A stretch of DNA of 52,781 nucleotides, from IMG/VR virus record IMGVR_UViG_3300048834_000156, positions 1-52,781 of that record; one strand, 5' to 3'. A program made the position numbers and the translations under genes. The notes beneath the pieces were generated by a model. The model saw nothing but the letters and a program-made list of their open reading frames with translations. It searched no databases and had not been told where the DNA came from. The stretch comes from a virus. Its lineage: Duplodnaviria > Caudoviricetes. Below, one piece after another: positions 2,521-43,210 of the stretch (the stretch's first letter is position 1; each line of letters opens with the position of its first letter).

Positions 2521-2580
2521 ATACCGCGGTATGGAAGTGTGATACGGTGCAACCTGTGAACACGGCAACCACCCAAGGAG
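2521..2580 (+). promoter_or_regulatory. Palindrome ATACCGCGGTAT, -10 TACGGT and RBS ACCCAAGGAG
   Basis: Palindrome 2521-2532, -10 at 2543-2548, RBS 2571-2580; same cassette recurs genome-wide. Confidence 0.75.
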
Positions 2581-3256: not shown

Positions 3257-3264
3257 CCTCGGCC

Positions 3265-4941
3265 ATGACCAACACCACGCGGTACACGATCATGTACGTC
3301 GGGAACTTCCGCCCGCCGCACTCCACCGAGAACCACGTCTCGCAGGCGCTCCGCAACATCGGCCACGACGTGATCCCGCTCCAAGAGGACGACGCAGCGA
3401 CCTGGGACACGCTGCGAGATGCCCGGCCTGATCTCGTGCTCTGGACCCGCACGTGGTCCCTGCCGGAGTTCGACCAGGTAGGCGTGCTCGACGAGCTGCG
3501 CGCCGCTGGTGTGCCGACGGTCGGCTACCACCTAGACCGGTGGTGGGGTCTGCCTCGTGAGCACCAGGTGCTCGATGAGCCGTTCTTCCGGTGTGACGTG
3601 ATGGTCACCGCCGATGGTGGCCACGACGAGATGTGGGACGCGGCCTGTGTCACGCACTGGTGGTTCCCTCCCGCGGTGCTCGCTGAGCAGGCCGTGCTCG
3701 GCAAGCCGGTCGCCCGTCGCCGGTACCCGGTCGGGTTCGTGGGGAGCTGGCACCGCTACCACCCCGAGTGGCCCTGGCGCACCGAGCTGATCCGGCACCT
3801 GCGCCGCATGTACGGCCGTGAGTTCGTGGCGTGGCCGCAAGGTGGACAGCCAGCGGTGCGAGGCCCGGCTCTGGCCGACGTGTACGCGTCGATCGACGTG
3901 GTGGTGGGTGACTCGTGCCTGGTCGGTGAGGCCTCCCGGTACTGGTCCGACCGCATCCCCGAGACGCTCGGCCGCGGCGGGTTCCTGATCCACCCCTACG
4001 TCGAGGGCATCGAGGACCACTACACCGACGGTGAGCACCTGGTGCTCGTGGAACCTCAGTCGTGGCCAGCGATGCGCGACGCGATCGAGAAGTGGCGGCG
4101 CGACCCTGACGGCCGGGCCGAGATCGCCGCGGCCGGGCGCGCGCACGTGCTCGCCCATCACACATACGAGCACCGCATGACCGAGCTGGTGGAGCGGCTC
4201 GAAGCGGCGCAGATCCTCACCCCGTTCGAGAAGCGGTCCGGGCCCGTCGTCGTGTCGAGCCGTGGGCTGTCCGCTTCGTTCGACCTGCGGCCAGAGAGCA
4301 CCGATGGCACCGTGGTGCGGGAGGTCTGGCACGAGAACGTGTACGGGCTCGAACCTGCCGACGTCGAGGGCAAGGTGGTGCTCGACGTCGGCGCGAACGT
4401 CGGTGCGTTCTCCGTGTGGGCCGCGCTGCACGGTGCGTTGAAGGTGATTGCCGTCGAGCCTGAGCATTCCAATGTCGAGCGGCTGTACCACCACATGAAG
4501 CGCAACGCCGTCGATCTGGTCATGTCGATCGCTGTGGTTGCGGTCAGCGAGGAGGTCGGACCCCGAACGATGACGGTCGTACCCGGCGAGCAGGGCGGAT
4601 CTCAGATGTGGCGGCACGGCCAGCGGCGGGCCGATGACGACCGCGGCAACACGATCGAGGTCGAGACGTGCACGCTTGGAGATCTCATCGCTGACGCCGG
4701 TGGACACGTGGACGTCCTCAAGATCGACATAGAGGGCAGCGAGTACGAGGTGCTCACGCACGCTGCGCAGGTCGGCACGCTGGCTCAGGTGGACCGGATC
4801 GTCGGCGAGTGGCACCCGTGGGTCGGCGACACGAGAGGGTTCGGCGACTGGTTCGCTGGGCTGCTCGACTTCGGTCGGCTCTCGATCATGGGTCATCCCG
4901 ACAAGGGCGGGCAGTTCGAGTGGAAGCGGTACGGGGCATGA
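3265..4941 (+). CDS. Glycosyltransferase (GT-B, CgeB-like) fused to FkbM-family methyltransferase
   Basis: N-half 'YASIDVVVGDS..YWSDRIPETLGRGGFLIHP..GRAHVLAHHTYEHR'; C-half SAM motif 'VVLDVGANVGAFS' and 'DVLKIDIEGSEYEV'. Confidence 0.85.
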   Translation: MTNTTRYTIMYVGNFRPPHSTENHVSQALRNIGHDVIPLQEDDAATWDTLRDARPDLVLWTRTWSLPEFDQVGVLDELRAAGVPTVGYHLDRWWGLPREHQVLDEPFFRCDVMVTADGGHDEMWDAACVTHWWFPPAVLAEQAVLGKPVARRRYPVGFVGSWHRYHPEWPWRTELIRHLRRMYGREFVAWPQGGQPAVRGPALADVYASIDVVVGDSCLVGEASRYWSDRIPETLGRGGFLIHPYVEGIEDHYTDGEHLVLVEPQSWPAMRDAIEKWRRDPDGRAEIAAAGRAHVLAHHTYEHRMTELVERLEAAQILTPFEKRSGPVVVSSRGLSASFDLRPESTDGTVVREVWHENVYGLEPADVEGKVVLDVGANVGAFSVWAALHGALKVIAVEPEHSNVERLYHHMKRNAVDLVMSIAVVAVSEEVGPRTMTVVPGEQGGSQMWRHGQRRADDDRGNTIEVETCTLGDLIADAGGHVDVLKIDIEGSEYEVLTHAAQVGTLAQVDRIVGEWHPWVGDTRGFGDWFAGLLDFGRLSIMGHPDKGGQFEWKRYGA

Positions 4942-17536: not shown

Positions 17537-18024
17537 TGTTCTCCACGACACGAGTGCTGATCCGATGGGCACGAGGGCTGATCTCCGTCGGCGACGATGG
17601 ACCCGAGCAGTTCGTAGAGATCGCCGGAGTGCAGGACTACGAGCAAGCCAAGCAGCTCGGCGAGGCGCTGCTCGAAGCGAGCAAGGGCACCCGGCAGACA
17701 CTCGCCGTGCAAGGCGGCGTATACACACCGGCGCAGCAACCTGGCGCGGCCTACGAGGTCGTGGACCGGATGGGCGTGTATCAGATCCAGTCCATAGCGA
17801 TATCGACAGACGACGAGGCGTACACGGTGGTCACTCCCGAGCTGGGAGACCCGAAACAGAAGCGGCTCGACGCGATCAACCGCAGGCTCGTGCGGGCGTC
17901 GGCTGGTGCGACGTCGGAGTTCGCTGCACCGGGCGCTCCGCGCCAGCCAGAGGGGCAGGGCATGGGCGGCACACCGCCAGAGTTCTCGACCACATGGGAC
18001 CGGGTGAGCGGGGGCAGCGCGTGA
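17536..18024 (+). CDS. Minor tail protein
   Basis: TGATG coupling; MFSTTRVLIRW...; tail module position. Confidence 0.6.
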   Translation: MFSTTRVLIRWARGLISVGDDGPEQFVEIAGVQDYEQAKQLGEALLEASKGTRQTLAVQGGVYTPAQQPGAAYEVVDRMGVYQIQSIAISTDDEAYTVVTPELGDPKQKRLDAINRRLVRASAGATSEFAAPGAPRQPEGQGMGGTPPEFSTTWDRVSGGSA

Positions 18025-18425
18025 CCGAGGTAAGCCCGCTCGATCCGACGCCGATCGAAGACCCGTGGTGGATACCGCCGCTGTGGCGAACGGCGCGCCC
18101 GTTCGCGCTGTCTCGGGTGACGGCGGCTCTCACGCCTGGTCTGGTGCCGTTGCCGTACGACCAGGAGTTTCGGGTTCAGGTCGTCATCGCACCGGACCCA
18201 GAGCAGCACATGGACGCCGGGTACTTCCCGATCGCCGAGCTGAAACTGAACGCCGTCGGGAAGCGGTCGGCGATCGTCGATATCCCGTGGCCGTTCGGTG
18301 TGCGCATGATCCCGGCAGGCTGGTGGGTGTGCTTCACGCACGACAAGAAGGGCGTGATACAGGACGTCTCGACGGAGTACCCGGTAGCGAAGCTGTCCGG
18401 TCGTCTCTACGGCTGCGATCTGTAG
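18021..18425 (+). CDS. Hypothetical protein (tail module)
   Basis: GTGA coupling; 134 aa. Confidence 0.6.
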   Translation: MTEVSPLDPTPIEDPWWIPPLWRTARPFALSRVTAALTPGLVPLPYDQEFRVQVVIAPDPEQHMDAGYFPIAELKLNAVGKRSAIVDIPWPFGVRMIPAGWWVCFTHDKKGVIQDVSTEYPVAKLSGRLYGCDL

Positions 18426-18440
18426 ACCTACACTCTCGGC

Positions 18441-18839
18441 ATGCCCGCATTCTTGCCGCCGTCGGCCCGTGACCTGTTCGCTGCTCGATGGATGACCGAG
18501 GACCACATCGTGGTGCTCTGCGGTGATGGGCACACGTTGAGCACCGCCACCGTCTACATGGACGAGCTGCTTGACGTGCTCAGCTCCGACGAGATGACCG
18601 GCGAGCAGATCGTGGGCAACGGTGTGTGTGACGCCGAAGACACGCCGGTCTCTGGCGTGGTGGCCGCGGAGACCGTGACGAGCATTCACATCGTGGAGGA
18701 CACGGGCGACCCTTCGACGTCGCCGATCATCTACAGCTCAGACATGCACACCGACGGCACACCGATTCTGAGGGTCTCGGACGGCAACGCGATCGTCGTC
18801 TCATGGTCCAACGGACCGGGCCGCATCCTGCAAGTCTGA
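18441..18839 (+). CDS. Hypothetical virion protein
   Basis: 132 aa acidic beta-rich ORF; TACACT 6 nt before ATG. Confidence 0.65.
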   Translation: MPAFLPPSARDLFAARWMTEDHIVVLCGDGHTLSTATVYMDELLDVLSSDEMTGEQIVGNGVCDAEDTPVSGVVAAETVTSIHIVEDTGDPSTSPIIYSSDMHTDGTPILRVSDGNAIVVSWSNGPGRILQV

Positions 18840-18885
18840 GAGCTATCACCGCGGCCCGGTAGGTCGTTCGCCTACCCTCTCGGGC

Positions 18886-19215
18886 ATGGACGCACACGCA
18901 CGGAACCGGCTGTACCTGGTCCTCACCACGCTGCAACCGCTGCTCATGTTCTACGGCCTGGCCGACGAGTCGCAGGCTCCGCTGTGGATCTCGCTCGGCG
19001 CAGCGGTGCTCGGCAACGGGCTCGCAGTCCTCAACGCCGACACGGCTCGGATCTGGCTCTACGGCGTCGCCGGAGCGGTGGCCACGCTCGTGGTTGCGTA
19101 CGGCCTGATCTCCGGCGCAGAGGCCGAGATGTGGCTCACCGTCCTGGCAGCCGTGCTCGGCATCGTCGGCACCGGCACCGCCGCGGTGACCACCCCGCCG
19201 ACTAGAGCCATCTAA
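18886..19215 (+). CDS. Holin (internally duplicated, about 4 TM helices)
   Basis: Two copies of R..LY.......L..YGL.....A..W....AAVLG; adjacent to endolysin. Confidence 0.75.
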   Translation: MDAHARNRLYLVLTTLQPLLMFYGLADESQAPLWISLGAAVLGNGLAVLNADTARIWLYGVAGAVATLVVAYGLISGAEAEMWLTVLAAVLGIVGTGTAAVTTPPTRAI

Positions 19216-19225
19216 GGGGCATCCG

Positions 19226-20080
19226 ATGCCCGAGGTCATCACCCGCGCCGAGTGGGGCGCGCGCTACGGGCGCGGCAACGACGTCTCGCACCTCGAACCG
19301 TGGGGCGAGATCGTCGTTCACACCGAAGCCGGAGCGGTCCGCAAACAGGACTGGCCGGTGCTCGACGAGCTGGCCGCGCTGAACCTCTCGCTCGATGAGC
19401 GCACGAAGATGCGAGCGATCGAGTCGTACCACTCGGCGACGCTCGGGTGGAACGGGTTCGGCTACTCGTTCGCGTTCTTCCCGGATGGGACGATCTGCGA
19501 GGGGCGCGGCTGGGGCCGGTCGGGCTCGCACACCGAGGGCCGCAACAGCACCGCGGCCGGGTTCTGCGTGATCGGCCACGGCGACCTACAGCCAGCGACC
19601 GGCGCGCAGTGGGCGTCGATGGCGTGGCTCATCGGTGAAGGCATCCGGCTCGGGCACGTGAAGCCGAACCCGAAGATCTCCGGTCACCGCAACTACTCCA
19701 AGAAGGGCAAGTCCTGCCCTGGTGACCTGATCTATCCGCACATCGGTCGGCTGCGTGGCATCACGGGCCCGGCTCCCATCATCACCCCGGAGGTACCAGA
19801 GATGGACGACGCAGAACGCCAGCTCATGCGAGACGTGCTCGACGCTGCCCGCGACGCCGCGGCTCAGGCCCGTGGCGCGGCGGTGTATGCGCAGGCGGTC
19901 GAGCAGCGGGTCACCCGCATCGAGACCGCGCTCAACATCGACGACGTGAACACGGTCCACGACGGCAAGAAGCCGTACCCCGGCCGGACGATCGCGTCGC
20001 TCACTCGCATCGAGAACGAGCACCTGCCCAAGCTCGGCGACCGGCTCGAAGTGATCGAGCAGCGTCTCGGCAAGAGCTAG
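19226..20080 (+). CDS. Endolysin, N-acetylmuramoyl-L-alanine amidase (Amidase_2/PGRP-like)
   Basis: 'ITRAEWGA', 'IVVHT', 'GWNGFGYSF', 'EGRGW..GSHT', 'GHRN', 'SCPG' Zn ligands. Confidence 0.9.
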   Translation: MPEVITRAEWGARYGRGNDVSHLEPWGEIVVHTEAGAVRKQDWPVLDELAALNLSLDERTKMRAIESYHSATLGWNGFGYSFAFFPDGTICEGRGWGRSGSHTEGRNSTAAGFCVIGHGDLQPATGAQWASMAWLIGEGIRLGHVKPNPKISGHRNYSKKGKSCPGDLIYPHIGRLRGITGPAPIITPEVPEMDDAERQLMRDVLDAARDAAAQARGAAVYAQAVEQRVTRIETALNIDDVNTVHDGKKPYPGRTIASLTRIENEHLPKLGDRLEVIEQRLGKS

Positions 20081-20376
20081 TGACCATCGACCTGGGGACT
20101 GCGGGCGCGATCGTCACGTGGTCGGTTGTTCTGTCTGGCGTGGTGGCTCTGCTCACCACGAAGCGGATGAGCGACCTGGTGGAGCTGTACCAGAAGCTGT
20201 TCGAGGGCAAGTCAGCAGAGAACGCCGAGCTGACCGCCCGGCTCGAACGGGTAGAGACGCAGCTCGCGTTCTATCAATCCGACTTCACGGCACAGCTAGC
20301 GGAGGGCATCACGAAAGCGATCGTGGACAGCGTCGAGCGCCACATCGGAGAGCGAGCACCTCATGAGCAGCACTGA
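20080..20376 (+). CDS. Membrane protein with coiled coil (lysis module)
   Basis: N-terminal TM segment followed by heptad-like region. Confidence 0.65.
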   Translation: MTIDLGTAGAIVTWSVVLSGVVALLTTKRMSDLVELYQKLFEGKSAENAELTARLERVETQLAFYQSDFTAQLAEGITKAIVDSVERHIGERAPHEQH

Positions 20377-20710
20377 GACCCCGATCGTGTCCGATGACGT
20401 GTTCCAGCACGTGAAGCGCATCGAGCGCTCGTACAGCCGTCTGCGTGGTCTGGCGTGGGCGCTCGGCATAACGGCGATCGCCGCGGTGCTGGCGGTGGTG
20501 TTCCTGTTCGGGCTGAACGCCGATCTCCGAGAGAACAAGCACGAGGTGGCGTGCAAGGATAACGCGATGGCCAGCGTGCTCGACGCGTTCGGCGGCGCAA
20601 TCCAAGCCGCGATTGCAGGTGACGCCGATGCTCTGCACGATTACAGCTCGCAGCTCGATCACCTCGGGTCGCTGCGGGACCTGTACGAGGACTGCCACGC
20701 ACGGCACTAG
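20363..20710 (+). CDS. Single-pass membrane protein (lysis module)
   Basis: TM 'LAWALGITAIAAVLAVVFLFGL'; two Cys in C-terminal domain. Confidence 0.65.
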   Translation: MSSTETPIVSDDVFQHVKRIERSYSRLRGLAWALGITAIAAVLAVVFLFGLNADLRENKHEVACKDNAMASVLDAFGGAIQAAIAGDADALHDYSSQLDHLGSLRDLYEDCHARH

Positions 20711-20739
20711 GTGACCTGCCCGCGGTCGGCGGGTATGGT
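20711..20739 (+). promoter_or_regulatory. Sigma70-type promoter with no downstream CDS
   Basis: GTGACC (20711-16), 17-bp spacer, TATGGT (20734-39). Confidence 0.6.
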
Positions 20740-20745
20740 GCTCTC

Positions 20746-20830
20746 GTTGCGTTGGCCGGTGTACGCCGTCCTTGGGAGCGCATCGAAGGACGAAGACCCT
20801 CGGGGTGATCCTCCGGGGGTCTTCGCCGTT
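20746..20830 (+). ncRNA. Candidate small RNA carrying anti-RBS UCCUUGGG
   Basis: Lies between a predicted promoter and a hairpin terminator; TCCTTGGG (20769-76) is the reverse complement of the repeated CCCAAGGA RBS. Confidence 0.5.
20791..20825 (+). terminator. Hairpin terminator
   Basis: CGAAGACCCTCGGGG-TGATC-CTCCGGGGGTCTTCG. Confidence 0.75.
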
Positions 20831-20891
20831 CCATACCGTGGTATGGTCCGCGGTGGTGGTGTCGATCGACGCTGCCGTCTGACCCAAGGAG
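20831..20891 (+). promoter_or_regulatory. Palindrome/promoter CCATACCGTGGTATGG and RBS ACCCAAGGAG
   Basis: Motif 20831-20846; RBS 20882-20891. Confidence 0.75.
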
Positions 20892-20898
20892 ACCAGCC

Positions 20899-21741
20899 AT
20901 GCAAGCGATGCCCGATGACCGCATCCCGCCCGAGCTAGCGCTCGACGTCGAGCCGTTCGATCTCGACCAGCTCGACCGGGCGGTGGAAGACACGCCGGAC
21001 CCGGTAGCAGCGTGGGCCGACGACGACCCAGACGACTACGAGCCCGACAAAGCCGCGGTGATGCGCTGGCACATCACCGACGACGAGGGCGCAGAGTGGG
21101 CCATGTCCCACGTGAACGGCATCTACGCCAACGCTCAGGCGCTCGCCGACCAGCGGGACGCGTACATCGCTCGGATCAACCGCCACCACGCCGAGGCCAT
21201 GAAGCGGCTCGACGCGCGCCGGCGGTTCTTCGAGCAGCACCTCATCCTCTACGCGGCGCAGTACCGGGCTCGTGACCCGAAGCGGAACAAGACGCTGCAC
21301 CTGCCGTCAGGTGTGGTCCGCTCTACCGAGACGCAGGCCAAGGTGGCGGTCGCTGACGATGTGACCGTGGCTGATTGGGCTCTCTCGCATCTCGAAGGCG
21401 ACCAGCACGAGGCTGTCGTGAAGACCACCACGAAGGTGATGCTCGGCGAGCTGCGCAAGGTGGCTGTGGTCGGGCAGCGTGTGTGGGGGCACGTGCTCGA
21501 CCTGTCGTGTGGGCACAGCGTGCGCATAGCGCTGGCCACCGAGGACGGCGAGAAGCTCGACCTTCGTGACGGGTACCCGTGCCGCGAGTGCGCGGACCCG
21601 CTCGACGGTGAGCCGGTGCGCGAGGTCGTGCGCGTCGAGGATCTGACCGAGCGTGTCGTCCGCTCGAAGGACACCGGCGAGGTGATCCCCGGCACCAGGA
21701 TCGAGCCCGGCGCGCTCACGTTCACGGTCTCACCGAAGTGA
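20899..21741 (+). CDS. Gam-like host-nuclease inhibitor with Zn-ribbon insertion
   Basis: 'WHITDDEGAEWAM', coiled coil, 'KTLHLPSGVV', C-terminal 'TGEVIPG'; inserted CGH...CREC. Confidence 0.75.
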   Translation: MQAMPDDRIPPELALDVEPFDLDQLDRAVEDTPDPVAAWADDDPDDYEPDKAAVMRWHITDDEGAEWAMSHVNGIYANAQALADQRDAYIARINRHHAEAMKRLDARRRFFEQHLILYAAQYRARDPKRNKTLHLPSGVVRSTETQAKVAVADDVTVADWALSHLEGDQHEAVVKTTTKVMLGELRKVAVVGQRVWGHVLDLSCGHSVRIALATEDGEKLDLRDGYPCRECADPLDGEPVREVVRVEDLTERVVRSKDTGEVIPGTRIEPGALTFTVSPK

Positions 21742-21893
21742 CCCGGCTCGGTGGTCTGGTAGCGGTCGTGCGTGCCGCTGCCCGGCCACCAGCGGGGCCG
21801 CGGCCGTTGCCGCCGCGCTGCTCGATCGAGCCACGCACCCATGTCCGGCCGCTACCTGCGGTGTACGACTGGACCCAAGAACCCGAGTCATAA
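21738..21893 (+). CDS. Small hypothetical protein
   Basis: 51 aa ORF with GTGA coupling that fills the gap exactly to the next promoter. Confidence 0.45.
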   Translation: MTRLGGLVAVVRAAARPPAGPRPLPPRCSIEPRTHVRPLPAVYDWTQEPES

Positions 21894-21927
21894 ACCGTGG
21901 TATGGTCCGCGGTCCCTACCCAAGGAG
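21892..21927 (+). promoter_or_regulatory. Motif AAACCGTGGTATGG and RBS ACCCAAGGAG
   Basis: Shares 20 nt (ACCGTGGTATGGTCCGCGGT) with the copy at 20835. Confidence 0.75.
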
Positions 21928-21937
21928 GAAACCTGTA

Positions 21938-23338
21938 ATGAGTGATCCGTCTGTGATCGACGCGGAAGCCCGCGAGTCGATCGACGAAGCGCCACCGGTG
22001 CGAGAGACGATCGACGCCGCCACCGGCGAGATCGTGCAGTACGACCAGAGGCCGCAACACGCAGGCATGCGTGAGATCGGCGGTACCGGGCTGCCGGTCG
22101 TGCCGATGCAGAACGAGCTATCGACCCTCGCTCAGATGGCGGTGACGATCTCCGCGGCGGCGACCGCGCCGAAGGCGTTGCAGGGCAAACCGAATGACGC
22201 GTTCATGGTCCTGCTGACGGCGCGAGACGTCGGTGTCGCGCTGACCACAGCGATCCGCGAGTTCCACGTGATCGACGGCAAGGTGACGCTCTCGCCGAAG
22301 GTCAAGCTGGCGATGGTCAAGCAGCAGAAGGTCGGCCGTGTGTTCCCGCACCAGCCGCCGCGGCCGATCCCTGACCCAGACGCCGAGGGCGGGTTCAGGT
22401 GGAAGCTCTGCGATTGCGGGTCTGACGGCGCGGCCAACGGCGACACGGAGGCGACATGGCATGCCGAGCGCAGCGACGAGCCGGGCATCTTGCACAGCTC
22501 GACGTTCACGATCGAGATGGCGCAGCGGGTCAAGGCGCGAGAGAACCAGAGGAACATCACGCTCGCTGAGAAGTCCACATGGCAGCAGTACCCCCAGCGG
22601 ATGCTGTCGTGGCGTGCTCTCGGGTACCTGCTCGATGACGTGTTCCCCGAGGTCGGGACCGGGCTCTACTCACCCGACGAGATGGGCGCTGTCACCGACG
22701 AGGACGGCGTGCCGCTCATCGACGTCGTGGGGTCCGCTGACCCGGTGCGTGGCACCCGTGCACCGGCCGGGCGACGCACCGCCGCAGCCGCGGCAGAGGT
22801 CGAGTACGCGAGCAAGGAGGCGATCGCCGCGCTCAAGGCCCGCATCGCTGCGATCTCCACGCTTCCCGAAGCGCGCGCGGCTCTGCTCTCGCTGTGGACC
22901 GCGACCCGCGAGGACGGCTCACCGACGCTGCCGCCCGTGGACCAGCTCGAAGCGCGCCAGCTCTCCCGAGCGGAGGGCATGGTAAAGAGCATCGAAGACC
23001 GCGCCACGAAGGGCGAGTGGGGCGAGTGGAAGCCCGCCACACAGCCCGAGGCGACCGGAGACGCCGCAGGTCAACCCGAGGCGACCGGAGACGCCGACGA
23101 TGCGCAGAGCGACGCAGGGACGCCGGACCCGCGTGTCGCTGCGGTGATCGAGACCGTTCGAGCCATGAAGCGACCAGCGATCGAGACAGAGCTAGAGGCC
23201 CGCGGGCTACCGAAGTCAGGGAACATGGACACGGTACGGCACCGCCTCGCTACGGCGATGCTCGCCGAGCACGACGACGGCCTACCGGCCGAGCCCGAGT
23301 TCCACGACGACAACGAAGGCAACGAGGGTGAGGCGTGA
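21938..23338 (+). CDS. RecT-like single-strand annealing protein with C-terminal SAP-like domain
   Basis: 'FHVIDGK', 'WQQYPQRMLSWRA..DVFPEV..GLYSPDEM'; 'IETELEARGLPKSGNMDTVRHRL' SAP pattern. Confidence 0.75.
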   Translation: MSDPSVIDAEARESIDEAPPVRETIDAATGEIVQYDQRPQHAGMREIGGTGLPVVPMQNELSTLAQMAVTISAAATAPKALQGKPNDAFMVLLTARDVGVALTTAIREFHVIDGKVTLSPKVKLAMVKQQKVGRVFPHQPPRPIPDPDAEGGFRWKLCDCGSDGAANGDTEATWHAERSDEPGILHSSTFTIEMAQRVKARENQRNITLAEKSTWQQYPQRMLSWRALGYLLDDVFPEVGTGLYSPDEMGAVTDEDGVPLIDVVGSADPVRGTRAPAGRRTAAAAAEVEYASKEAIAALKARIAAISTLPEARAALLSLWTATREDGSPTLPPVDQLEARQLSRAEGMVKSIEDRATKGEWGEWKPATQPEATGDAAGQPEATGDADDAQSDAGTPDPRVAAVIETVRAMKRPAIETELEARGLPKSGNMDTVRHRLATAMLAEHDDGLPAEPEFHDDNEGNEGEA

Positions 23339-24195
23339 GCGTTAAGGCTCTCGGGTGGGTGCTCGATCACTCGCCCGCCAAAGGCTCTGACCGGCTCGTG
23401 CTCATCTCGATCGCCAACCACGCCGGGCAGAACCCGGTCGGTGGCGCGTGGGAAGCGTGGCCAGGGATCGGCACCTTGCAACGAGAGGCCAGGCTCGACC
23501 GGGCTCGGACCGTGAACGATGCGCTCGCCCGGCTGGTCGAGGCTGGCCAGATCGAGCGGGTCGTGAACGGCGCACCCGATGAGCACATCCGCAAGGACCG
23601 CCGACCGAACCTGTACCGGGTGCTCATCTCTCACGGGGTGACGTGTGGCGACACCCGGTGCAGATGGTGCGGGGTGCCGTCCGACGTCACCCCGCCACCG
23701 GACGACGGGGTGACGCTTCACGCGCCACGGGGTGACGTCCTACCGCATCACGGGGTGACGTCCTGCGACGCTACGGGGTGTCGCGAAGCGTCACCCGAAC
23801 CATCATTAGAACCATCACTGAAACCGTCAGAGGAACCACAACCCCTGTCGCTGGCGCTCGGCGGCGATGCGGCGTTGGTGGCCGAGGTGGCGTTCGGTGA
23901 GTTCTGGAAGGTGTACCCGCGGCGGGTCGGTCCCGGCGCGGCACGCAAGGCGTGGGCGAAGGCGATCCGCAAGGCACCAGCTCAGCGGATCATCGACGCC
24001 GCGGCCCGCTACGCAGCCGAGACGCACGGTCGCCCGGTGGACAAGATCGCTCACCCAACGACCTGGCTGAACGGTGAGCGCTGGGACGACGAGCCCGGAG
24101 CGAACGCCGGGCCTCAGCGAGGCAAGCCGCCAGGTGGCGCTGGCGGTCCCGTCACGAGTCGCCGTGACGGACCCGAGGGTCGGGTGAGAGCGTGA
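23335..24195 (+). CDS. Replication initiator (N-terminal HTH, lambda O-like organisation)
   Basis: 'RLVLISIANHA..AWPGIGTL..LARLVEAG'; C-terminal 'FGEFWKVYPRR..ARKAW..HPTTWLNGERWDD'; precedes DnaC-like gene. Confidence 0.85.
   Translation: MSVKALGWVLDHSPAKGSDRLVLISIANHAGQNPVGGAWEAWPGIGTLQREARLDRARTVNDALARLVEAGQIERVVNGAPDEHIRKDRRPNLYRVLISHGVTCGDTRCRWCGVPSDVTPPPDDGVTLHAPRGDVLPHHGVTSCDATGCREASPEPSLEPSLKPSEEPQPLSLALGGDAALVAEVAFGEFWKVYPRRVGPGAARKAWAKAIRKAPAQRIIDAAARYAAETHGRPVDKIAHPTTWLNGERWDDEPGANAGPQRGKPPGGAGGPVTSRRDGPEGRVRA
23634..23797 (+). repeat. Iterons CGGGGTGACG; probable replication origin
   Basis: Exact direct copies at 23634, 23706, 23728, 23751; variants at 23670, 23774; inverted copies at 23685 and 23789 (partial). 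Confidence 0.75.
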
Positions 24196-27614: not shown

Positions 27615-27991
27615 CCGACGACGAACAAGCCTTCCAACAGAAGGTGATCCGCACAGCCCGCCGAGCCGGGTGGCGTCACCAGCACACCTACAAGGGCCGC
27701 ACCGGCAAGGGCGCGTGGCGCACCAACGCAGCAACCGGGTTCCCTGACCTGCTGCTCGTGAAGCGCGGGCGGATGCTCGCTCTCGAACTGAAGGCACCAG
27801 GCGGCGCGCCATCACCAGAGCAGCTCGCGTGGATCGAGCTGCTCGACACGATCCCCGGATGCACCGCCCGCGTGGTCTACCCGGCCGACTGGCCGTGGAT
27901 CATGCAAGCACTCACCACACCCGCACCGCGGTACCTAGACCGCGGTATGGTTCCACCACCCAACACCAACGAAGGAACAGACCATGACTGA
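27596..27991 (+). CDS. VRR-NUC domain nuclease
   Basis: 'EQAFQQKV', 'GFPDLLL', 'LELKAPGG..SPEQLAW' PD-(D/E)xK motif. Confidence 0.85.
   Translation: MPQGSLTDDEQAFQQKVIRTARRAGWRHQHTYKGRTGKGAWRTNAATGFPDLLLVKRGRMLALELKAPGGAPSPEQLAWIELLDTIPGCTARVVYPADWPWIMQALTTPAPRYLDRGMVPPPNTNEGTDHD
27925..27951 (+). promoter_or_regulatory. Tandem ACCGCGGTA motifs (14-bp spacing) with -10 TATGGT
   Basis: Cores at 27925 and 27939, upstream of ATG 27984. Confidence 0.7.
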
Positions 27992-28469
27992 TCTAGCCGG
28001 AGCTATGGCCGACGTCTCGCAGCTCTCGCAGTTCGACGGCAAGCCCGTCGTGCGCACCACGATCGCTGTGACCAACGCAGGCGACGGGCTCTCTGACGCG
28101 CTCGGCATCGACCCCCAGGAGTTCCACCACGGCGACACCGTGTACGTCGTCCTGGAGTGCGTCGTGTCGAAGGTCGCGCACGTGCCGATCGACAAGGACA
28201 CTCCCGGCATCCTCGTGCGGCAACACACGCTCAGAGCCGGTACCGGCACGATCGTGGACGAGTCGGTCGTAGCCGAACAGGTGCGGCTACAGGCCGAGAA
28301 GATCGAGACCGCCCGCCGCCACGCGAAGGGAGAGTTCACGCTCGACGAGGCCGCTCTACAGGCCGAGCACGACGACGGCCAGCACGCCGCCGAGCTACGA
28401 CCAGGCTGCCCGGACTGTGACGACGAGGCAGCAGCAGCGGCGGCAGAAGCCGAGGACGACGACAAGTGA
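27984..28469 (+). CDS. Hypothetical protein
   Basis: 161 aa, GAAGGA RBS. Confidence 0.7.
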   Translation: MTDLAGAMADVSQLSQFDGKPVVRTTIAVTNAGDGLSDALGIDPQEFHHGDTVYVVLECVVSKVAHVPIDKDTPGILVRQHTLRAGTGTIVDESVVAEQVRLQAEKIETARRHAKGEFTLDEAALQAEHDDGQHAAELRPGCPDCDDEAAAAAAEAEDDDK

Positions 28470-28702: not shown

Positions 28703-28737
28703 ACCGCGGTATAGAATCGCTGGTCCCACCCAAGGAG
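28701..28737 (+). promoter_or_regulatory. Motif AAACCGCGGTATAG, -10 TAGAAT and RBS ACCCAAGGAG
   Basis: Shares 19 nt (ACCGCGGTATAGAATCGCT) with the copy at 41974. Confidence 0.75.
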
Positions 28738-28747
28738 GACCCCCAGC

Positions 28748-30229
28748 ATGAACCCGACCGACGAGCAGCAGAACGCGCTCGACATGTTCCACTTCGGCGA
28801 CAACCTGGCTATCGAGGCCGGTGCCGGTACAGGCAAGACGTCCACGCTCAGGCTCATGGCCGACGGCACCAACCGCCGCGGCCAGTACCTCGCCTTTAAC
28901 CGGGCGATCGTGATGGACGCCAAAGCCAAGATGCCCGGCAACGTGTCAGCAGACACCGCGCACGCTCTGGCCATGCGCCAGGTCGGCAGGCTGTACCGGC
29001 ACCGGCTCGACGCATCCGCCCGCCAGCACTCCCGGCAGGTGGCAGCAATGCTCGACATAGGACCGCTCGCCATCTCGTACGGAGCACAGCGCAAGGTGTT
29101 GCAACCCGGCTACCTGGCCGGGCTCGTGCAACGAGCGATCACCGTGTTCTGTCAGTCGGCCGACGACACACCTGGCCGTGAGCACGTGCCGTACATCGAC
29201 GGCATAGACCTGCCAACCGTGGACGGTCGCCGCACCTACACCAGCAACAACGCAGTGCGAGACCACATCGCCGACGCCATCGCGAAGGCGTGGGCCGACC
29301 TCTCGAACCGAGACGGTCAGCTCAGGTTCAAGCACGAGCACTACCTCAAGCTCTGGCAGCTCTCAAAGCCGCGCATACCGGCAGACTTCATCCTCTTCGA
29401 CGAAGCGCAGGACGCATCACCGGTGATGCTCGACGTGGTGGCCAACCAGACAGACACGCAGCTCGTGTTCGTCGGTGACAGTCAGCAGCAGATCTACGAG
29501 TTCACCGGCGCGGTGAACGCTCTAGCGAAGGTGCCAGCAGGTCAGCGCACCTACCTGACCCGCTCGTTCCGGTTCGGTGAGCAGATCGCTGAGCGAGCGA
29601 ACCTCGTGCTCGGCGAGATCGGCTCACCGATGCGGCTCACCGGGAACCCGGCGATCCGCTCCACCGTCGGGACGCTCGACAAGCCGGGCGCGATCCTCAC
29701 CCGCACCAACGCCGCCGCAATGACCGCCGTGCTCGAAGCGCAGAAGGCAGGCATCCGCGTGCACCTCATCGGTGACGGCAAAGAGCTGGTCAGCTTCGCC
29801 ACCGCCGCGGGTCAGCTCATGGCAGGTGAGGACACATGGCACCCCGAGCTGGCGTGCTTCACCACGTGGGGCGAGGTCCAAACCTACGTGGCAGACGACC
29901 CGCAAGGATCCGAGCTGGCGCTCATGGTCAAGCTCGTGGACGACTACGGCGTAGAGACCATCCTGTCGGCGCTGCGCAACATGGTGGACGAGCGAGGCGC
30001 TGAGCTGGTGGTCTCGACGGCGCACAAAGCCAAGGGCTGCGAGTGGTCACGCGTCCAGATCGCCGACGACTTCCCCGATCCGCGTGAGTCGTTCGAGGCG
30101 ATGCTCGACCCGACGCTCTCGCACCCCGAGCTGAGACTCATCTACGTGGCGGTCACCCGAGCCCGCCATCGGCTCGACGTCGATCAGGTCCCGTACTTCG
30201 ACTGCGGCCCAGCCACGCGGGTCATGTGA
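28748..30229 (+). CDS. UvrD/Rep-like superfamily 1 helicase
   Basis: AGAGTGKT, DEAQD, VGDSQQQIY, SFRF, TAHKAKG.EW, YVAVTRAR. Confidence 0.9.
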   Translation: MNPTDEQQNALDMFHFGDNLAIEAGAGTGKTSTLRLMADGTNRRGQYLAFNRAIVMDAKAKMPGNVSADTAHALAMRQVGRLYRHRLDASARQHSRQVAAMLDIGPLAISYGAQRKVLQPGYLAGLVQRAITVFCQSADDTPGREHVPYIDGIDLPTVDGRRTYTSNNAVRDHIADAIAKAWADLSNRDGQLRFKHEHYLKLWQLSKPRIPADFILFDEAQDASPVMLDVVANQTDTQLVFVGDSQQQIYEFTGAVNALAKVPAGQRTYLTRSFRFGEQIAERANLVLGEIGSPMRLTGNPAIRSTVGTLDKPGAILTRTNAAAMTAVLEAQKAGIRVHLIGDGKELVSFATAAGQLMAGEDTWHPELACFTTWGEVQTYVADDPQGSELALMVKLVDDYGVETILSALRNMVDERGAELVVSTAHKAKGCEWSRVQIADDFPDPRESFEAMLDPTLSHPELRLIYVAVTRARHRLDVDQVPYFDCGPATRVM

Positions 30230-35481: not shown

Positions 35482-35545
35482 TTGCGGCGCAGGTTGCAAC
35501 CGCGGTATGGTTCCGGTCGTCAACCAACCCGCACCACCCAAGGAG
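35482..35545 (+). promoter_or_regulatory. Promoter with motif and RBS ACCCAAGGAG
   Basis: TTGCGG-18 bp-TATGGT; AACCGCGGTATGG 35498-35510; RBS 35536-45. Confidence 0.75.
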
Positions 35546-36323: not shown

Positions 36324-36387
36324 TTGCACCGCTCGCGAAACCGCGGTATGGTTTCGCTGTTCCAACAAACCTGATCCACCCAAGGAG
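36324..36387 (+). promoter_or_regulatory. Promoter TTGCAC-17-TATGGT with motif and RBS ACCCAAGGAG
   Basis: -35 at 36324-29, -10 at 36347-52, motif 36338-51, RBS 36378-87. Confidence 0.8.
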
Positions 36388-36393
36388 ATCAAC

Positions 36394-37371
36394 ATGCCTG
36401 CTTACTTCGACACCGGTTTCTCAGTTCGTCAGCCCATGTGGCATGGCCTCGGCACCGTGCTCGACGAGTACCCCGAGAACTGGGACGACGCTCGCCTCTC
36501 TGCCGGGCTCATGTGGGAACCGACCATCCGGCCCGTGTTCCACCGCAACGGCGACGAGTACCAGGAAGTCCCGAACCACCGGCTCGTCGTCCGCGACGAC
36601 ACCGAAGACGTGCTCGGCGTCGTGTCCGACGGCTACGAGCTGGTCTCGCATGGCGCTATGGGCGAGATCATCGAAGCGATCTCAGAACAGCCCAACGTGA
36701 AGTTCGAGACCGCTGGCAGCGTCCGCAACGGCGCTCAGGTCTGGGCGCTCGCATACGTCGATGAGCCCGAGGTCATCGAAGGCGACGACAGCGAGACGTA
36801 CCCGTTCCTCGCCCTGCTCAACAGCCACGACGGAACCGGCGCATGCAAGGTGATCTCGACCAGCATCCGCGTCGTCTGCTGGAACACCTACCGCGCCGCC
36901 GAGATGCAGGGCGAGCGCACCGGGCGGCAGTTCGTGTTCCGCCACACGTCGAGCGTCCACGACCGCATCGAAGAGGCCAAGCAGGCGTTGCGCGGCACCC
37001 GAGAGCAGCAGGCCGAGTGGCTCGCTCTCGCTGCCGAGCTGGCCAAGATGCCCGCCCGAGAGCCCGAGTTCCTCGCCTTCACCCAAGCGTTCCTGCCCGA
37101 CCCGACCGAGCAGGCCGGGCAGGTCGTCTCAGAGCGAGTGAAGAACAAGATCGCTCGCAACCGCGAGACCTTCCACAAGCTCTACACCGAGTCGCCCACG
37201 ACCGACGGCCACCGCGGCACAGCGCTCGGGCTGGTGGACGCCGCTGTCGAGTACCTGGACCACCTGCGTGGGTTCCGCTCGACGGACAGCTACCTCGGTC
37301 GCACGCTGCTGCGCCCTGAGCCGCTCAAGGCCAACGCGGTGGCGATCGCTCGTGAGGTCTGCACCTTGTAG
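36394..37371 (+). CDS. DUF932/DUF945-family (TIGR03299-like) protein
   Basis: 'VRQPMWHGLG', 'VLGVVSDGY', 'FETAGS..G.QVW', 'LNSHDG', 'IRVVCWNT', 'RHTSS'. Confidence 0.85.
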   Translation: MPAYFDTGFSVRQPMWHGLGTVLDEYPENWDDARLSAGLMWEPTIRPVFHRNGDEYQEVPNHRLVVRDDTEDVLGVVSDGYELVSHGAMGEIIEAISEQPNVKFETAGSVRNGAQVWALAYVDEPEVIEGDDSETYPFLALLNSHDGTGACKVISTSIRVVCWNTYRAAEMQGERTGRQFVFRHTSSVHDRIEEAKQALRGTREQQAEWLALAAELAKMPAREPEFLAFTQAFLPDPTEQAGQVVSERVKNKIARNRETFHKLYTESPTTDGHRGTALGLVDAAVEYLDHLRGFRSTDSYLGRTLLRPEPLKANAVAIAREVCTL

Positions 37372-37395
37372 CCTCAAGGCTCATAGCCCCAGGTG

Positions 37396-37430
37396 AAGCG
37401 CCCTCGGTCCCTCGTGGACCGAGGGCGCTT
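37396..37430 (+). terminator. Hairpin terminator
   Basis: AAGCGCCCTCGGTCC-CTCGT-GGACCGAGGGCGCTT. Confidence 0.8.
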
Positions 37431-37434
37431 TCCG

Positions 37435-37485
37435 TTCACGGAACCTCCATACCGTGGTATGGTTCTGTTCTCCTCACCCAAGGAA
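37435..37485 (+). promoter_or_regulatory. Promoter TTCACG-17-TATGGT with CCATACCGTGGTATGG and RBS ACCCAAGGAA
   Basis: Motif 37447-37462; RBS 37476-85. Confidence 0.8.
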
Positions 37486-37493
37486 GGAACCAC

Positions 37494-37802
37494 ATGGACA
37501 GCAAGATTCCCCGTCCACGACACGCACCCGCTGGGCCGGTCACGCTCGAACGCATCGGCCCGGACGCATGGCAGGCCGTCGGGCTCGACGGGTTCCGCTG
37601 GAACGTCTGCGCCTGCGCACGACAGGCGGCGTACTGCTCTCGCACCGGGATGCAACGCACGGTCGTGCGAGCCATCACGTTCGACAAGGGCGAGTGGCGC
37701 GACTGCACACCGGCCGAGCTGGACCACTGCACCGCCCACCCGGCCAACCACGAGCACACGCACCGGCCCGGCCTCGTGCGAGTCACGGCAGATGTGCGAT
37801 GA
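37494..37802 (+). CDS. Hypothetical protein
   Basis: ATG after conserved RBS; 102 aa. Confidence 0.65.
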   Translation: MDSKIPRPRHAPAGPVTLERIGPDAWQAVGLDGFRWNVCACARQAAYCSRTGMQRTVVRAITFDKGEWRDCTPAELDHCTAHPANHEHTHRPGLVRVTADVR

Positions 37803-41985: not shown

Positions 41986-42008
41986 AATCGCTCAACCAAC
42001 CCAAGGGA
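41970..42008 (+). promoter_or_regulatory. Palindrome CCATACCGCGGTATAG, -10 TAGAAT and RBS ACCCAAGGGA
   Basis: Motif 41970-85; RBS 41999-42008. Confidence 0.75.
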
Positions 42009-43204: not shown

Positions 43205-43210
43205 GAGCGC

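What the first reader, a model, noticed from the sequence alone, without database searches (positions are those of the whole stretch)
20711..20830. Candidate phage sRNA antisense to the shared RBS of its own early genes (possible translational early-to-late switch)
Seen: after the lysis genes there is a promoter (GTGACC-17 bp-TATGGT), about 45 nt with no usable ORF, then a terminator hairpin. The predicted ~85-nt RNA contains UCCUUGGG (20769-76). This is the exact reverse complement of CCCAAGGA, found in the RBS of 7 promoter-proximal genes (2571, 20882, 21918, 28728, 35536, 36378, 37476; 7/8 match at 41999). One fold (UGCGUU 20748-53 with AGCGCA 20777-82) leaves the 8-mer largely unpaired; another (CGUCCUU/AAGGACG) hides it. 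This promoter has only the GGTATGG half of the palindrome, so it may escape the control placed on the target promoters. Inference: one RNA could block ribosome loading on all ACCCAAGGAG mRNAs while leaderless virion mRNAs are immune. Read-through late lysis transcripts would carry the same element. I know of no described system like this, but an 8-mer can occur by chance.
Basis: partly seen in the sequence, partly recalled or inferred. Interest (0 to 1): 0.85.

Follow-up and report, generated by a model that had tools for sequence, protein, structure and literature searches.

The report
Conserved phage anti-RBS small RNA
Between the lysis genes and the first replication gene, this uncultured high-GC phage and its relatives carry a short structured RNA unit whose exposed bases match the ribosome-binding tag of the phage's own early genes, so it probably shuts off their translation, though no RNA has been observed yet.

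Summary
TCCTTGGG occurs once on the coding strand (20769). Its complement CCCAAGGA occurs 7 times, always 6-12 nt before a start codon that follows a GGTATGG promoter motif.

Comparative data make chance unlikely. Four diverged relatives (L122, L123/L124, L127, L147) carry the same unit at the same place: stop codon, TAnnnT, a stem starting 7-9 nt later, the seed bulged out of a P1/P2 fold, then a strong hairpin. The stems differ in sequence but keep pairing: 24 of 34 pairs change on both sides, and 0 of 500 shuffles match that (fitted alignment).

The seed tracks the tag. L147 has tag CCCAUGG and seed UCAUGGG. The more distant L120 has tag GGGAAAGGAAC and a unique GUUCCUUUCCC in a terminator loop. 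In 4 of 4 comparable lineages, the longest match is to a distal RBS, not the adjacent one.

Against: there are no RNA data. The sites rank only 141-147 of 4,017 helices by energy. The W-type hairpin has no U-tract. Cis pairing with the Gam RBS is also predicted.

Verdict: a trans-acting anti-RBS sRNA (about 0.6). It is a new variant of a known kind. The proposed early-to-late timing is inference.

The parts
20363..20710 (+). Last ORF of the lysis/late block (115 aa, no family match). Its stop codon TAG is at 20708-20710. The unit starts right after it.
   Evidence: Holin at 18886-19215 and amidase endolysin at 19226-20080 lie upstream.
20711..20739 (+). Promoter-like stretch. GTGACC (20711-20716), a 17-nt spacer, then TATGGT (20734-20739) inside GGTATGGT. 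This is the same -10 as the early promoters, but without the ACCGY/palindrome half.
   Evidence: A TAnnnT hexamer sits at the equivalent place in L122, L123/L124, L127 and L147, 7-9 nt before the first paired base. One search did not call it a sigma-70 consensus promoter.
20746..20784 (+). 5' domain of the predicted RNA. P1 pairs 20748-20753 with 20777-20782. A two-pair GG:CC helix pairs 20754-20755 with 20770-20771. P2 is the hairpin 20757-20760 with 20765-20768.
   Evidence: MFE and centroid agree. The same topology appears in L122, L123/L124, L127 and L147 with different stem sequences. The energy of this domain alone is not unusual in the window (z -0.11).
20769..20776 (+). Anti-RBS seed UCCUUGGG. 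UUGGG (20772-20776) is a 5-nt bulge on the 3' side, and CC (20770-20771) is weakly paired.
   Evidence: It is unique on the + strand. Unpaired probability is 0.91-0.98 for UUGGG, and the opening cost of the 8-mer is about 3 kcal/mol. It is the only conserved island in the unit apart from the Gam promoter and RBS.
20785..20831 (+). Strong hairpin that would be the terminator or 3' end. It has a 15-bp G+C-rich stem (20791-20805 / 20811-20825), loop GUGAU, and tail GCCGUUCC with no U-tract.
   Evidence: A hairpin occupies the same position in all relatives, and 11 of its 17 pairs change on both sides. One search did not list it as an intrinsic terminator.
20831..20847 (+). Early promoter of the Gam-like gene. 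It holds the palindrome CCATACCGTGGTATGG overlapping the -10 TATGGT (20842-20847).
   Evidence: It is one of 11 ACCGYGGTAT(G/A)G sites.
20883..20890 (+). Target tag CCCAAGGA in the RBS of the Gam-like gene (ATG at 20899). This is the adjacent target and the candidate cis partner.
   Evidence: Cis pairing with the seed is predicted on read-through RNA (P 0.99, or 0.53 with upstream context).
2572..2579 (+). Target tag before an ORF of unknown function, 2589-3002.
21919..21926 (+). Target tag before the RecT-like gene, 21938-23338.
28729..28736 (+). Target tag before the UvrD-like helicase gene, 28748-30229.
35537..35544 (+). Target tag before an ORF of unknown function. The start is probably GTG at 35553.
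36379..36386 (+). Target tag before the DUF932 gene, 36394-37371.
37477..37484 (+). Target tag before a 102-aa ORF, 37494-37802.
42000..42007 (+). Variant tag CCCAAGGG (8 pairs including one G-U) before the DnaQ-like exonuclease gene, 42020-42595.

Best explanation
The stretch 20732-20831 encodes a small structured regulatory RNA of about 85 nt. It would be made from its own -10 element, and it would also be carried as the 3' end of the late/lysis transcript.

Its 5' domain holds the bases UUGGG(A) out as a bulge. These bases nucleate on the accessible CCCAA that sits just 5' of the Shine-Dalgarno GGAG in the leaders of about 8 promoter-proximal replication and recombination genes. Pairing then extends to 8 bp (UCCUUGGG:CCCAAGGA). 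This covers the ribosome-binding site and blocks 30S loading, probably with secondary mRNA decay or polarity.

The leaderless late mRNA (promoter at 43197) and genes with other RBSs would be untouched.

What is shown: the motif statistics, synteny, a conserved fold with compensatory changes, seed-tag co-variation between lineages, and predicted accessibility.

What is inferred: that the RNA is made, that it acts in trans, that it represses, and when it acts.
For: 1. Uniqueness. There is 1 sense-strand copy of the 8-mer against 7 complementary copies, all in RBS position. Expected total is 0.79, and 0 of 100 shuffles reach 8.

2. Conservation. The unit lies between a non-homologous upstream gene and the Gam gene in L122, L123/L124 and L127 (Gam 43-47% identical), and in L147. 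Between the window and three of these relatives (L122, L124, L127; L147 was not in this comparison), the only collinear identical blocks in the intergenic DNA are the seed, the Gam promoter and the RBS.

3. Structure. All lineages show the same P1 / GG:CC / P2 / 3'-bulge topology.
- This topology arises in about 2% of flank shuffles per sequence: 22, 22, 17 and 25 of 1000. By that strict criterion it is met in 3 of the 4 sequences tested; L124 fails it because its bulge is shifted by one base (UGGGA instead of UUGGG).
- On the model-fitted alignment of 5 sequences, 95.8% of cells pair.
- 24 of 34 pairs change on both sides, and 0 of 500 shuffles reach that.
- Slid controls pair only 40-50%.

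4. Promoter. TAnnnT ends 7-9 nt before the first paired base in 5 of 5 W-type lineages. In the window's 188-nt intergenic stretch, TAnnnT occurs only 3 times.

5. Co-variation.
- In L147/G001 the tag is CCCAUGGAG (4 RBSs). The unique TCATGGGA sits in the homologous bulge, so the A-to-U change in the tag is met by a U-to-A change in the seed.
- In L120/G002 the tag is GGGAAAGGAAC. Allowing 1 mismatch, 9 copies are found against 2.43 expected, and 0 of 200 shuffles reach 9. Eight are sense RBS-like and one is antisense. That one lies in the loop of a U-tract terminator hairpin of a TATAGT unit just upstream of Gam (z -4.43).

6. Trans rather than cis. The longest contiguous helix to the adjacent Gam RBS versus the best distal RBS is 7 vs 9 in L122, 9 vs 11 in L124, 10 vs 12 in G001, and 9 vs 11 in L120. 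In the window it is 8 for all.

7. Accessibility. Mean unpaired probability of the tag in predicted leaders is 0.51-0.72.

8. Precedent. Chaperone-independent actinobacterial sRNAs pair through loops to RBSs (passages of PMC10470900). Actinophages make abundant ncRNAs of unknown function, one of them mid-genome (passages of PMC10986025).
Against: - No expression data exist. The phage is a metagenomic record with no known host.
- With sRNA accessibility included, the 7 exact sites rank 141-147 of 4,017 contiguous helices on the + strand (net -9.8 kcal/mol). About 5 other start-region helices score better. Thermodynamics alone therefore does not single the sites out.
- The window's 5' domain is no more stable than shuffles (z -0.11).
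- The consensus scan found no sigma-70-type promoter and did not list the hairpin as a terminator. W-type hairpins lack a U-tract.
- The CC of the seed is paired inside the sRNA.
- Read-through RNA is predicted to pair the seed with the adjacent Gam RBS in cis in 3 of 4 lineages: the window 0.99/0.53, L124 1.0, L127 0.69/0.41, L122 0.
- Two relatives have no unit. L121/L126 has a short intergenic region. L148 has neither tag nor antisense.
- The covariation count was made on an alignment fitted to the structure.
- The model built from L123+L124 finds the window (25.3 bits) and L147 (22.5 bits) no better than two probable false hits (24.1 and 23.4 bits).
- There are only 5-6 lineages, and they are related.
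Confidence: 0.6

Rival explanations
1. Cis-only sequestrator. The element works only on transcripts that read through the hairpin, either from the late operon or from its own -10. On those RNAs it pairs with the Gam RBS about 105 nt downstream. Gam is then translated only from mRNAs that start at its own promoter, which lies between the two partners.
For: Folding of read-through RNA pairs the seed with the Gam RBS at P 0.99 (window), 1.0 (L124) and 0.69 (L127). The unit always lies directly upstream of Gam. Seed-tag co-variation is equally expected under this reading. W-type hairpins lack a U-tract, so read-through is plausible.
Against: In 4 of 4 lineages where targets differ, the adjacent RBS is not the best match. 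In L122 the predicted cis pairing is 0. A conserved P1/P2 scaffold and a conserved -10 at a fixed distance are not needed for simple sequestration. In L120 the seed sits in the loop of a canonical U-tract terminator, so most transcripts would end before Gam. This reading also does not explain why the non-SD part of the tag (CCCAA) is kept on 7 other leaders.
Confidence: 0.15
2. The unit is a structured 3' end of the late operon or a protein- or RNase-binding element. The conserved bulge would be a recognition site for a protein, for example a phage or host RNA-binding protein or a processing enzyme. Its complementarity to the RBS tag would be incidental or indirect.
For: The unit sits exactly where the late/lysis operon needs a 3' end. 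The structure is conserved. The energy ranking of RBS pairing is unremarkable. GGA-containing loops are classic protein sites (recalled, e.g. CsrA).
Against: It does not predict that the bulge sequence changes together with the RBS tag in L147 and L120. It does not predict that antisense copies are otherwise absent from the sense strand: CTCCTT 0 vs AAGGAG 13, and CCTTGG 1 vs CCAAGG 26, although codon bias also contributes to that. CsrA is not known in Actinobacteria (recalled).
Confidence: 0.1
3. The RNA is real but aimed mainly at host mRNAs, or at superinfecting relatives as an immunity function, rather than being a temporal switch for the phage's own early genes.
For: Most characterised phage sRNAs act on host genes or on immunity (sections 2 and 7 of the review PMC12197685). 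Lineage-specific seeds resemble the P1/P7 c4 heteroimmunity logic.
Against: The host is unknown, so host targets cannot be tested. No integrase or repressor was seen among the 20 window proteins scanned, but the scan was not exhaustive. The matching tags are in the phage's own genome.
Confidence: 0.08
4. Chance 8-mer in an ordinary terminator region, or a small protein-coding or minus-strand gene.
For: An 8-mer can occur by chance in 52.8 kb. ORFs cross the region (GTG 20711, 75 aa; TTG 20772, 36 aa; minus-strand ORFs). On the minus strand the 8-mer reads as the RBS tag itself.
Against: The motif recurs at the syntenic site in 4 further lineages inside diverged sequence. No peptide similarity exists between lineages (best E 0.016 over 8 aa, in the promoter block). 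On the minus strand no start codon follows the tag in the window, L123, L127 or L122, and L124 has only an 11-codon ORF (read from the sequences).
Confidence: 0.04

Closest known systems
c4 antisense RNA of phages P1 and P7 (immI operon)
   Same: It is a phage-encoded structured RNA on the same strand as, and upstream of, its target. Loop sequences pair with complementary sites around a ribosome-binding site and block translation. The RNA and target sequences differ together between related phages (passage in the review PMC12197685; the heteroimmunity detail is partly recalled).
   Different: c4 acts on one operon (icd/ant) for immunity in temperate enterobacterial phages, and it is processed from the target's own transcript (recalled). 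Here one seed matches a tag on about 8 separately promoted leaders spread over the genome of an actinophage-like virus. There is no Rfam match at the gathering threshold anywhere in the window.
6C / B11 sRNA of mycobacteria and other Actinobacteria
   Same: It is a chaperone-independent sRNA whose unpaired loop bases pair with RBS sequences of many mRNAs and repress translation (abstract and passages of PMC10470900).
   Different: It is a host-encoded, conserved family with C-rich loops against G-tracts. The window's only 6C match is 18.7 bits against a gathering score of 47, on the opposite strand, with E 2.6, so the unit is not a member. Here the seed reads a phage-specific tag (CCCAA + GGA) rather than a generic G-tract.
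T4 RegB endoribonuclease and RegA translational repressor
   Same: These are phage functions that inactivate many of the phage's own early mRNAs through a motif in the translation-initiation region. RegB cuts GGAG in early Shine-Dalgarno sequences. RegA competes with ribosomes on about 30 mRNAs (passages of PMC3014915).
   Different: Both are proteins. Here the proposed effector is an RNA, and specificity comes from Watson-Crick pairing to an extended tag. No homology is implied.
P22 sar, lambda OOP and aQ antisense RNAs
   Same: They are small phage RNAs that repress phage genes post-transcriptionally by pairing (section 2 of PMC12197685).
   Different: They are cis-encoded on the opposite strand of a single target, so they are fully complementary. 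The unit here is on the same strand, has a short seed, and has many targets.
Highly expressed non-coding regions of actinophages (WC1 nc_1-3; D29, Kampy)
   Same: They are abundant intergenic RNAs of unknown function in phages of Actinobacteria. One lies mid-genome and is expressed late (passages of PMC10986025).
   Different: No mechanism, seed or target has been proposed for them in the passages read. Sequence relatedness to this unit was not tested.

Membership tests
Trans-encoded base-pairing sRNA that occludes ribosome-binding sites (functional class) | Discrete short transcript with its own start and 3' end | tested here: inconclusive
   A conserved TAnnnT lies 7-9 nt before the first paired base, and a conserved strong hairpin follows. 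No RNA data are available. The consensus scan is negative.
Trans-encoded base-pairing sRNA that occludes ribosome-binding sites (functional class) | Seed complementary to the translation-initiation region of several mRNAs | tested here: met
   8 bp to 8 RBSs in the window; 7-12 bp to 1-6 RBSs per relative.
Trans-encoded base-pairing sRNA that occludes ribosome-binding sites (functional class) | Seed conserved, or co-varying with targets, among relatives | tested here: met
   The same seed occurs in 4 lineages. Matching changes occur in L147 (A/U swap) and L120 (a different 11-mer).
Trans-encoded base-pairing sRNA that occludes ribosome-binding sites (functional class) | Seed single-stranded in a conserved structure | tested here: met
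   By prediction only. UUGGG is unpaired at 0.6-0.99. The topology arises in about 2% of shuffles; by that strict criterion it was met in 3 of 4 sequences tested, with L124's bulge shifted by one base.
Trans-encoded base-pairing sRNA that occludes ribosome-binding sites (functional class) | Seed-dependent repression of targets | not testable with these tools
   Needs reporter or toeprint experiments.
Rfam 6C (RF01066) | Match to the family covariance model at or above the gathering score | tested here: not met
   18.7 bits against 47, on the minus strand, E 2.6. No family reaches gathering anywhere in the window.
P1/P7 c4 antisense RNA | Sequence/structure homology to the curated family (an Rfam family for c4 is recalled, not checked by name) | tested here: not met
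   No Rfam family matched at gathering or at E up to 10 in 20650-20920, apart from the 6 weak hits listed.
P1/P7 c4 antisense RNA | Same-strand RNA upstream of its target, pairing through loops to the RBS region | tested here: met
   Geometry is shown. This is a likeness of working, not membership.
Cis-acting anti-Shine-Dalgarno sequestrator | Best complementarity is to the RBS on the same transcript | tested here: not met
   Adjacent versus best distal helix: 7 vs 9, 9 vs 11, 10 vs 12, 9 vs 11. In the window all are equal at 8.
Cis-acting anti-Shine-Dalgarno sequestrator | Co-transcription of the element and the RBS | tested here: inconclusive
   A strong hairpin and a promoter lie between the two. 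Read-through cannot be measured. Pairing is predicted if read-through occurs.
Intrinsic (factor-independent) terminator | G+C-rich stem-loop followed by a U-tract | tested here: not met
   In the window the stem is present but the tail is GCCGUUCC, and one search did not list it. In L120 the analogous hairpin has UGUUUUU.

The most novel reading that the evidence does not exclude
A family of uncultured actinophage-like viruses marks the leaders of its separately promoted early (replication/recombination) operons with a short address tag fused to the Shine-Dalgarno sequence. It encodes one structured sRNA, placed at the 3' end of the late/lysis operon, that reads this tag and shuts off translation of the whole early regulon.

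The tag and the seed co-evolve, giving three different pairs seen here. The same RNA could therefore also set lineage-specific exclusion of superinfecting relatives.

This would be an RNA counterpart of T4 RegB/RegA. It would also be the first described phage sRNA with a multi-operon regulon within the phage's own genome.
Probability: 0.4. Interest if true: 0.85.

Novelty: new variant of a known kind. Interest (0 to 1): 0.72.

Why it matters
Phage gene timing is usually explained by promoters, sigma factors, anti-terminators and a few protein translational repressors. Known phage sRNAs mostly act on one phage gene or on host genes (sections 2 and 7 of the review PMC12197685).

A single sRNA that reads a tag shared by all early leaders would add an RNA layer of regulon-wide control. 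It would explain why bases that do not pair with 16S rRNA (CCCAA) are conserved next to the Shine-Dalgarno sequence. It would also suggest a function for some of the abundant, unexplained ncRNAs seen in actinophage transcriptomes (PMC10986025).

The co-varying tag/seed pairs form a natural set of orthogonal RNA repressors for Hfq-less, high-GC bacteria. The prediction is directly testable with reporters and compensatory mutations.

My searches and the review found no description of such a system. Subscription journals and supplements were not searched.

Tried and rejected
**Close relatives in cultured phages.** Megablast and blastn of the region, and tblastn of Gam, found nothing. tblastn of the terminase places the virus only loosely near Streptomyces phages, at 46-49% identity.

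**Single-protein and pattern scans of viral contigs.**
- The Gam protein alone found nothing.
- The pattern GGTATGGT...CCCAAGGA gave 117+ single chance hits.
- TCCTTGGGA-N85-115-CCCAAGGAG gave 18 loci. All are chance: low GC or coding, with one copy of each motif.
- L120's Gam protein found only itself.

**Genome contigs.** The Gam alignment found no relative, so no prophage relatives were found.

**Sequencing runs.** None was listed for 18000-24000, and no RNA holder was listed.

**Rfam.** Nothing reached gathering. Only sub-threshold noise appeared at E up to 10.

**Energy ranking.** Plain duplex energy of the seed region against 40-nt windows put no RBS in the top 25. With sRNA opening energies, the RBS sites rank 141-147 of 4,017.

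**Alignments and models.**
- The MAFFT alignments A2 and A3 were not structural. RNAalifold on A3 missed P1.
- Model R1, built from A3, misaligned the 5' domain and was dropped.
- Model R2, built from L123+L124 only, was used instead.
- A7 (109 matches, mostly noise) was not used.
- L147 was left out of A8 because its E-value (0.021) fell below two probable false hits.

**Rejected readings.** A small ORF and a minus-strand gene were rejected (and reading). An inverted copy of a promoter-RBS module on the minus strand is not conserved in relatives.

**Relatives without the unit.** L121/L126 and L148 lack it. L125 holds no upstream DNA.

Full report
**What the window is.** The window is a complete IMG/VR virus record of 52,781 bp with 127-bp direct terminal repeats and 68% G+C. 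All convincing ORFs lie on the + strand. The order is as follows.
- Small terminase-like gene (40205), a leaderless gene at 43211, and large terminase (43517).
- Structural genes running across the record ends to about 18 kb.
- Holin (18886), amidase endolysin (19226) and two small ORFs ending at 20710.
- A Gam-like gene (20899), a RecT-like gene (21938), a DnaC-like loader, two helicases, a ParB-methyltransferase, DUF932 and a DnaQ-like exonuclease.

The nearest cultured phages, by terminase only at 46-49% identity, infect Streptomyces. There is no nucleotide-level relative in the phage collection.

**The observation.**
- TCCTTGGG occurs once on the + strand (20769). CCCAAGGA occurs seven times. 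The expected total is 0.79, and 0 of 100 shuffles reach 8.
- All seven sites, plus the G-U variant at 42000, lie 6-12 nt before a start codon. Each follows a CCGYGGTAT(G/A)G motif by 20-45 nt.
- Twelve GGTAT[AG]G sites exist on the + strand. Eleven are preceded by ACCGY, which forms the palindrome ATACCGCGGTAT over the -10. The twelfth, at 20732, is not.
- Downstream of 20732 come 39 nt that fold into a stem (P1) enclosing a two-pair GG:CC helix and a small hairpin (P2). UUGGG sits as a 5-nt bulge (unpaired probability 0.91-0.98). A 15-bp hairpin follows.
- The consensus scan called no sigma-70 promoter or U-tract terminator here. ORFs do cross the region.

**Relatives.** Gam homologues at 43-51% identity exist. 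An alignment of them (A1) retrieved metagenome loci L122, L123, L124 (L123 and L124 are nearly identical) and L127. It also retrieved the distant loci L120 and L121/L126. A RecT-like alignment (A5) added L147 and L148.

Upstream genes include endolysins in L122, L127 and L120. The phrog_644 protein is shared by the window, L122 and L124, so the position after the lysis block and before Gam is syntenic.

In L122, L123/L124 and L127, the gene just upstream is not homologous to the window's. Even so, the intergenic DNA shows the same order of features:
- stop codon;
- GGTAnnnT;
- a stem that begins 7-8 nt after the hexamer;
- (U)CCUUGGGA;
- a strong hairpin followed by GCGUYCC;
- the early promoter;
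- (A/U/C)CCCAAGGAG and the Gam start.

Between the window and these relatives, the only collinear identical blocks are the seed (11 nt), the Gam promoter and the RBS. No peptide similarity exists in any frame.

**Structure.**
- Every lineage folds into the same topology with different stem sequences.
- When the flanks are shuffled with the seed fixed, a bulged seed enclosed by a stem arises in 22, 22, 17 and 25 of 1000 trials. It is observed in three of four sequences strictly. In L124 it is shifted by one base.
- A covariance model built from L123+L124 alone, with their MFE structure, recovered L122 (48 bits), L127 (28.7), the window (25.3, E 0.0063) and L147 (22.5, E 0.021) at the right places. 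Two likely false hits scored 23-24 bits, so sequence-plus-structure homology of the window to that model is borderline.
- On the resulting five-sequence alignment, 95.8% of cells pair and 24 of 34 pairs change on both sides. For P1 this is 7 of 9, for P2 5 of 5, and for the hairpin 11 of 17. None of 500 shuffles reaches this. Slid controls pair 40-50%.
- That alignment was fitted to the structure, which inflates the figures. The lineages are also few and related.
- The window's 5' domain alone is not unusually stable (z -0.11). Other lineages give -0.97 to -3.92.

**Seed and tag change together.**
- In L147 (whole record G001, 53,213 bp), four RBSs carry CCCAUGGAG or CCCAUGGGAGG. One unique TCATGGGA lies in the homologous bulge between the stop codon and the hairpin upstream of Gam. 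Relative to the window, the A-to-U change in the tag is matched by a U-to-A change in the seed.
- In L120 (61% G+C, Gam 37% identical), the tag is GGGAAAGGAAC. Allowing one mismatch there are 9 copies against 2.43 expected, and 0 of 200 shuffles reach 9. Eight are in sense orientation, of which 7 lie before start codons (6380 has none). One is antisense. That one lies in the loop of a U-tract terminator hairpin of a TTGGTG-17-TATAGT unit immediately upstream of the Gam promoter (z -4.43). This unit has a different architecture and may be an analogue rather than a homologue.
- L148 has neither a tag nor an antisense copy. L121/L126 has a short intergenic region and no unit.

**Trans or cis.** Read-through RNA is predicted to pair the seed with the adjacent Gam RBS: the window 0.99 (0.53 with upstream context), L124 1.0, L127 0.69/0.41, and L122 0. 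Cis sequestration is therefore possible. Several points favour trans action.
- The longest contiguous helix is with a distal RBS rather than the adjacent one in all four lineages where targets differ: L122 7 vs 9, L124 9 vs 11, G001 10 vs 12, L120 9 vs 11.
- A -10 at a fixed distance is conserved.
- A scaffold that presents the seed is conserved.
- In L120 the seed lies inside a canonical terminator.
- A non-Shine-Dalgarno part of the tag (CCCAA) is kept on many leaders.

Because the unit follows the last late gene, late transcripts would also carry it as their 3' end. The idea that it turns early translation down late in infection is reasonable but unproven.

**What does not fit.**
- Energy ranking is unremarkable. 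With sRNA opening energies, the exact sites give -12.8 kcal/mol hybrid and -9.8 net, ranking 141-147 of 4,017 helices on the + strand. A few start-region helices involving stem bases score better.
- Target tags are moderately open, with mean unpaired probability 0.51-0.72.
- No sequencing run could be listed.
- Rfam has no match.

**Literature.**
- I read the outline and sections 2 and 7 of a 2025 review of phage sRNAs, PMC12197685. It lists c4, sar, OOP, aQ, PreS, VpdS, 24B_1 and others. None has a multi-operon regulon in its own genome.
- I read passages of PMC10986025. They report three abundant non-coding regions of unknown function in the actinophage WC1, and similar ones in mycobacteriophages.
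- I read passages of PMC10470900. They show chaperone-independent RBS pairing by B11/6C loops.
- I read passages of PMC3014915. They describe T4 RegB cutting GGAG in early Shine-Dalgarno sites, and RegA competing with ribosomes on about 30 mRNAs.
- For the bioRxiv preprint 10.1101/2024.10.31.621285, I saw only the abstract and outline.
- Searches found no description of a tag-reading phage sRNA. Motif strings returned only unrelated eukaryotic primer hits.

**Verdict.** The element is a conserved, structured RNA-level feature. The best reading is a trans-acting anti-RBS sRNA (about 0.6), possibly with an added cis effect on Gam. The cis-only reading stands at about 0.15. The mechanism belongs to a known kind, RBS occlusion by an sRNA. 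The arrangement appears new: one seed, a regulon-wide address tag, co-evolving pairs, and placement at the end of the late operon.

Noticed in passing
window 2528, 3243, 20840, 21899, 27944, 28708, 35504, 36345, 37456, 41979, 43197: Eleven copies of ACCGYGGTAT(G/A)G lie upstream of genes. The core ATACCGCGGTAT is a perfect 12-bp palindrome overlapping the -10, and three sites have the full CCATACCNNGGTATGG. This is a candidate operator for a dimeric regulator of the early promoters. The regulator was not identified.
   Followed up: partly
window 43197-43213: The ATG at 43211 lies 6 nt after the last base of the TATGGT hexamer (43199-43204), so the ATG begins about 7 nt after it. This promoter probably gives a leaderless mRNA at the head of the packaging/structural block. 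It has no RBS tag.
   Followed up: partly
window, whole + strand: Antisense-of-SD words are almost absent from the sense strand: CTCCTT 0 vs AAGGAG 13, CCTTGG 1 vs CCAAGG 26, TCCTTG 2 vs CAAGGA 23. Codon bias (rare CTT, CCT, TTG) probably explains much of this. Avoidance of internal anti-SD words was not separated from it.
   Followed up: no
window 27944-27986: One early-type promoter drives a gene (27984-28469) whose RBS is AACGAAGGAAC, not the tag. This gives a natural untagged control among the early promoters.
   Followed up: no
window 3253-4941: A 562-aa protein has an N-terminal part resembling glycosyltransferases of Streptomyces phages (about 31% identity) and a C-terminal part resembling methyltransferases. 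It sits in the virion-gene region and follows a promoter motif at 3243.
   Followed up: no
window 37395-37440: A second strong hairpin (AAGCGCCCTCGGTCC ... GGACCGAGGGCGCTT) is followed by TTCCGTTC and then an early promoter. This is the same hairpin-tail-promoter layout as at 20791-20847, but no antisense seed precedes it.
   Followed up: no
L120 3420-3450 and 7800-7835: The early promoters of L120 share the palindrome GGGGTTGCAACCCC (containing TTGCAA) about 12-14 nt upstream of TAnnGT. The sRNA-like unit's promoter (TTGGTG-17-TATAGT) lacks it. This parallels the window, where the sRNA promoter lacks the operator half.
   Followed up: partly
L120 1636-1655: The window-type tag CCCAAGGAG occurs once in L120, before a gene in the lysis region (start 1653). 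L120's own antisense element matches a different tag.
   Followed up: no
L122 7878-7915: In L122 the hairpin's 5' arm reads CAAGGAGGCACC (RBS-like) and its 3' arm reads GGUGCCUCCUUCG (anti-SD-like). The 5' arm could also pair with the seed region (GGUGCCUUG). A possible alternative fold was not analysed.
   Followed up: no
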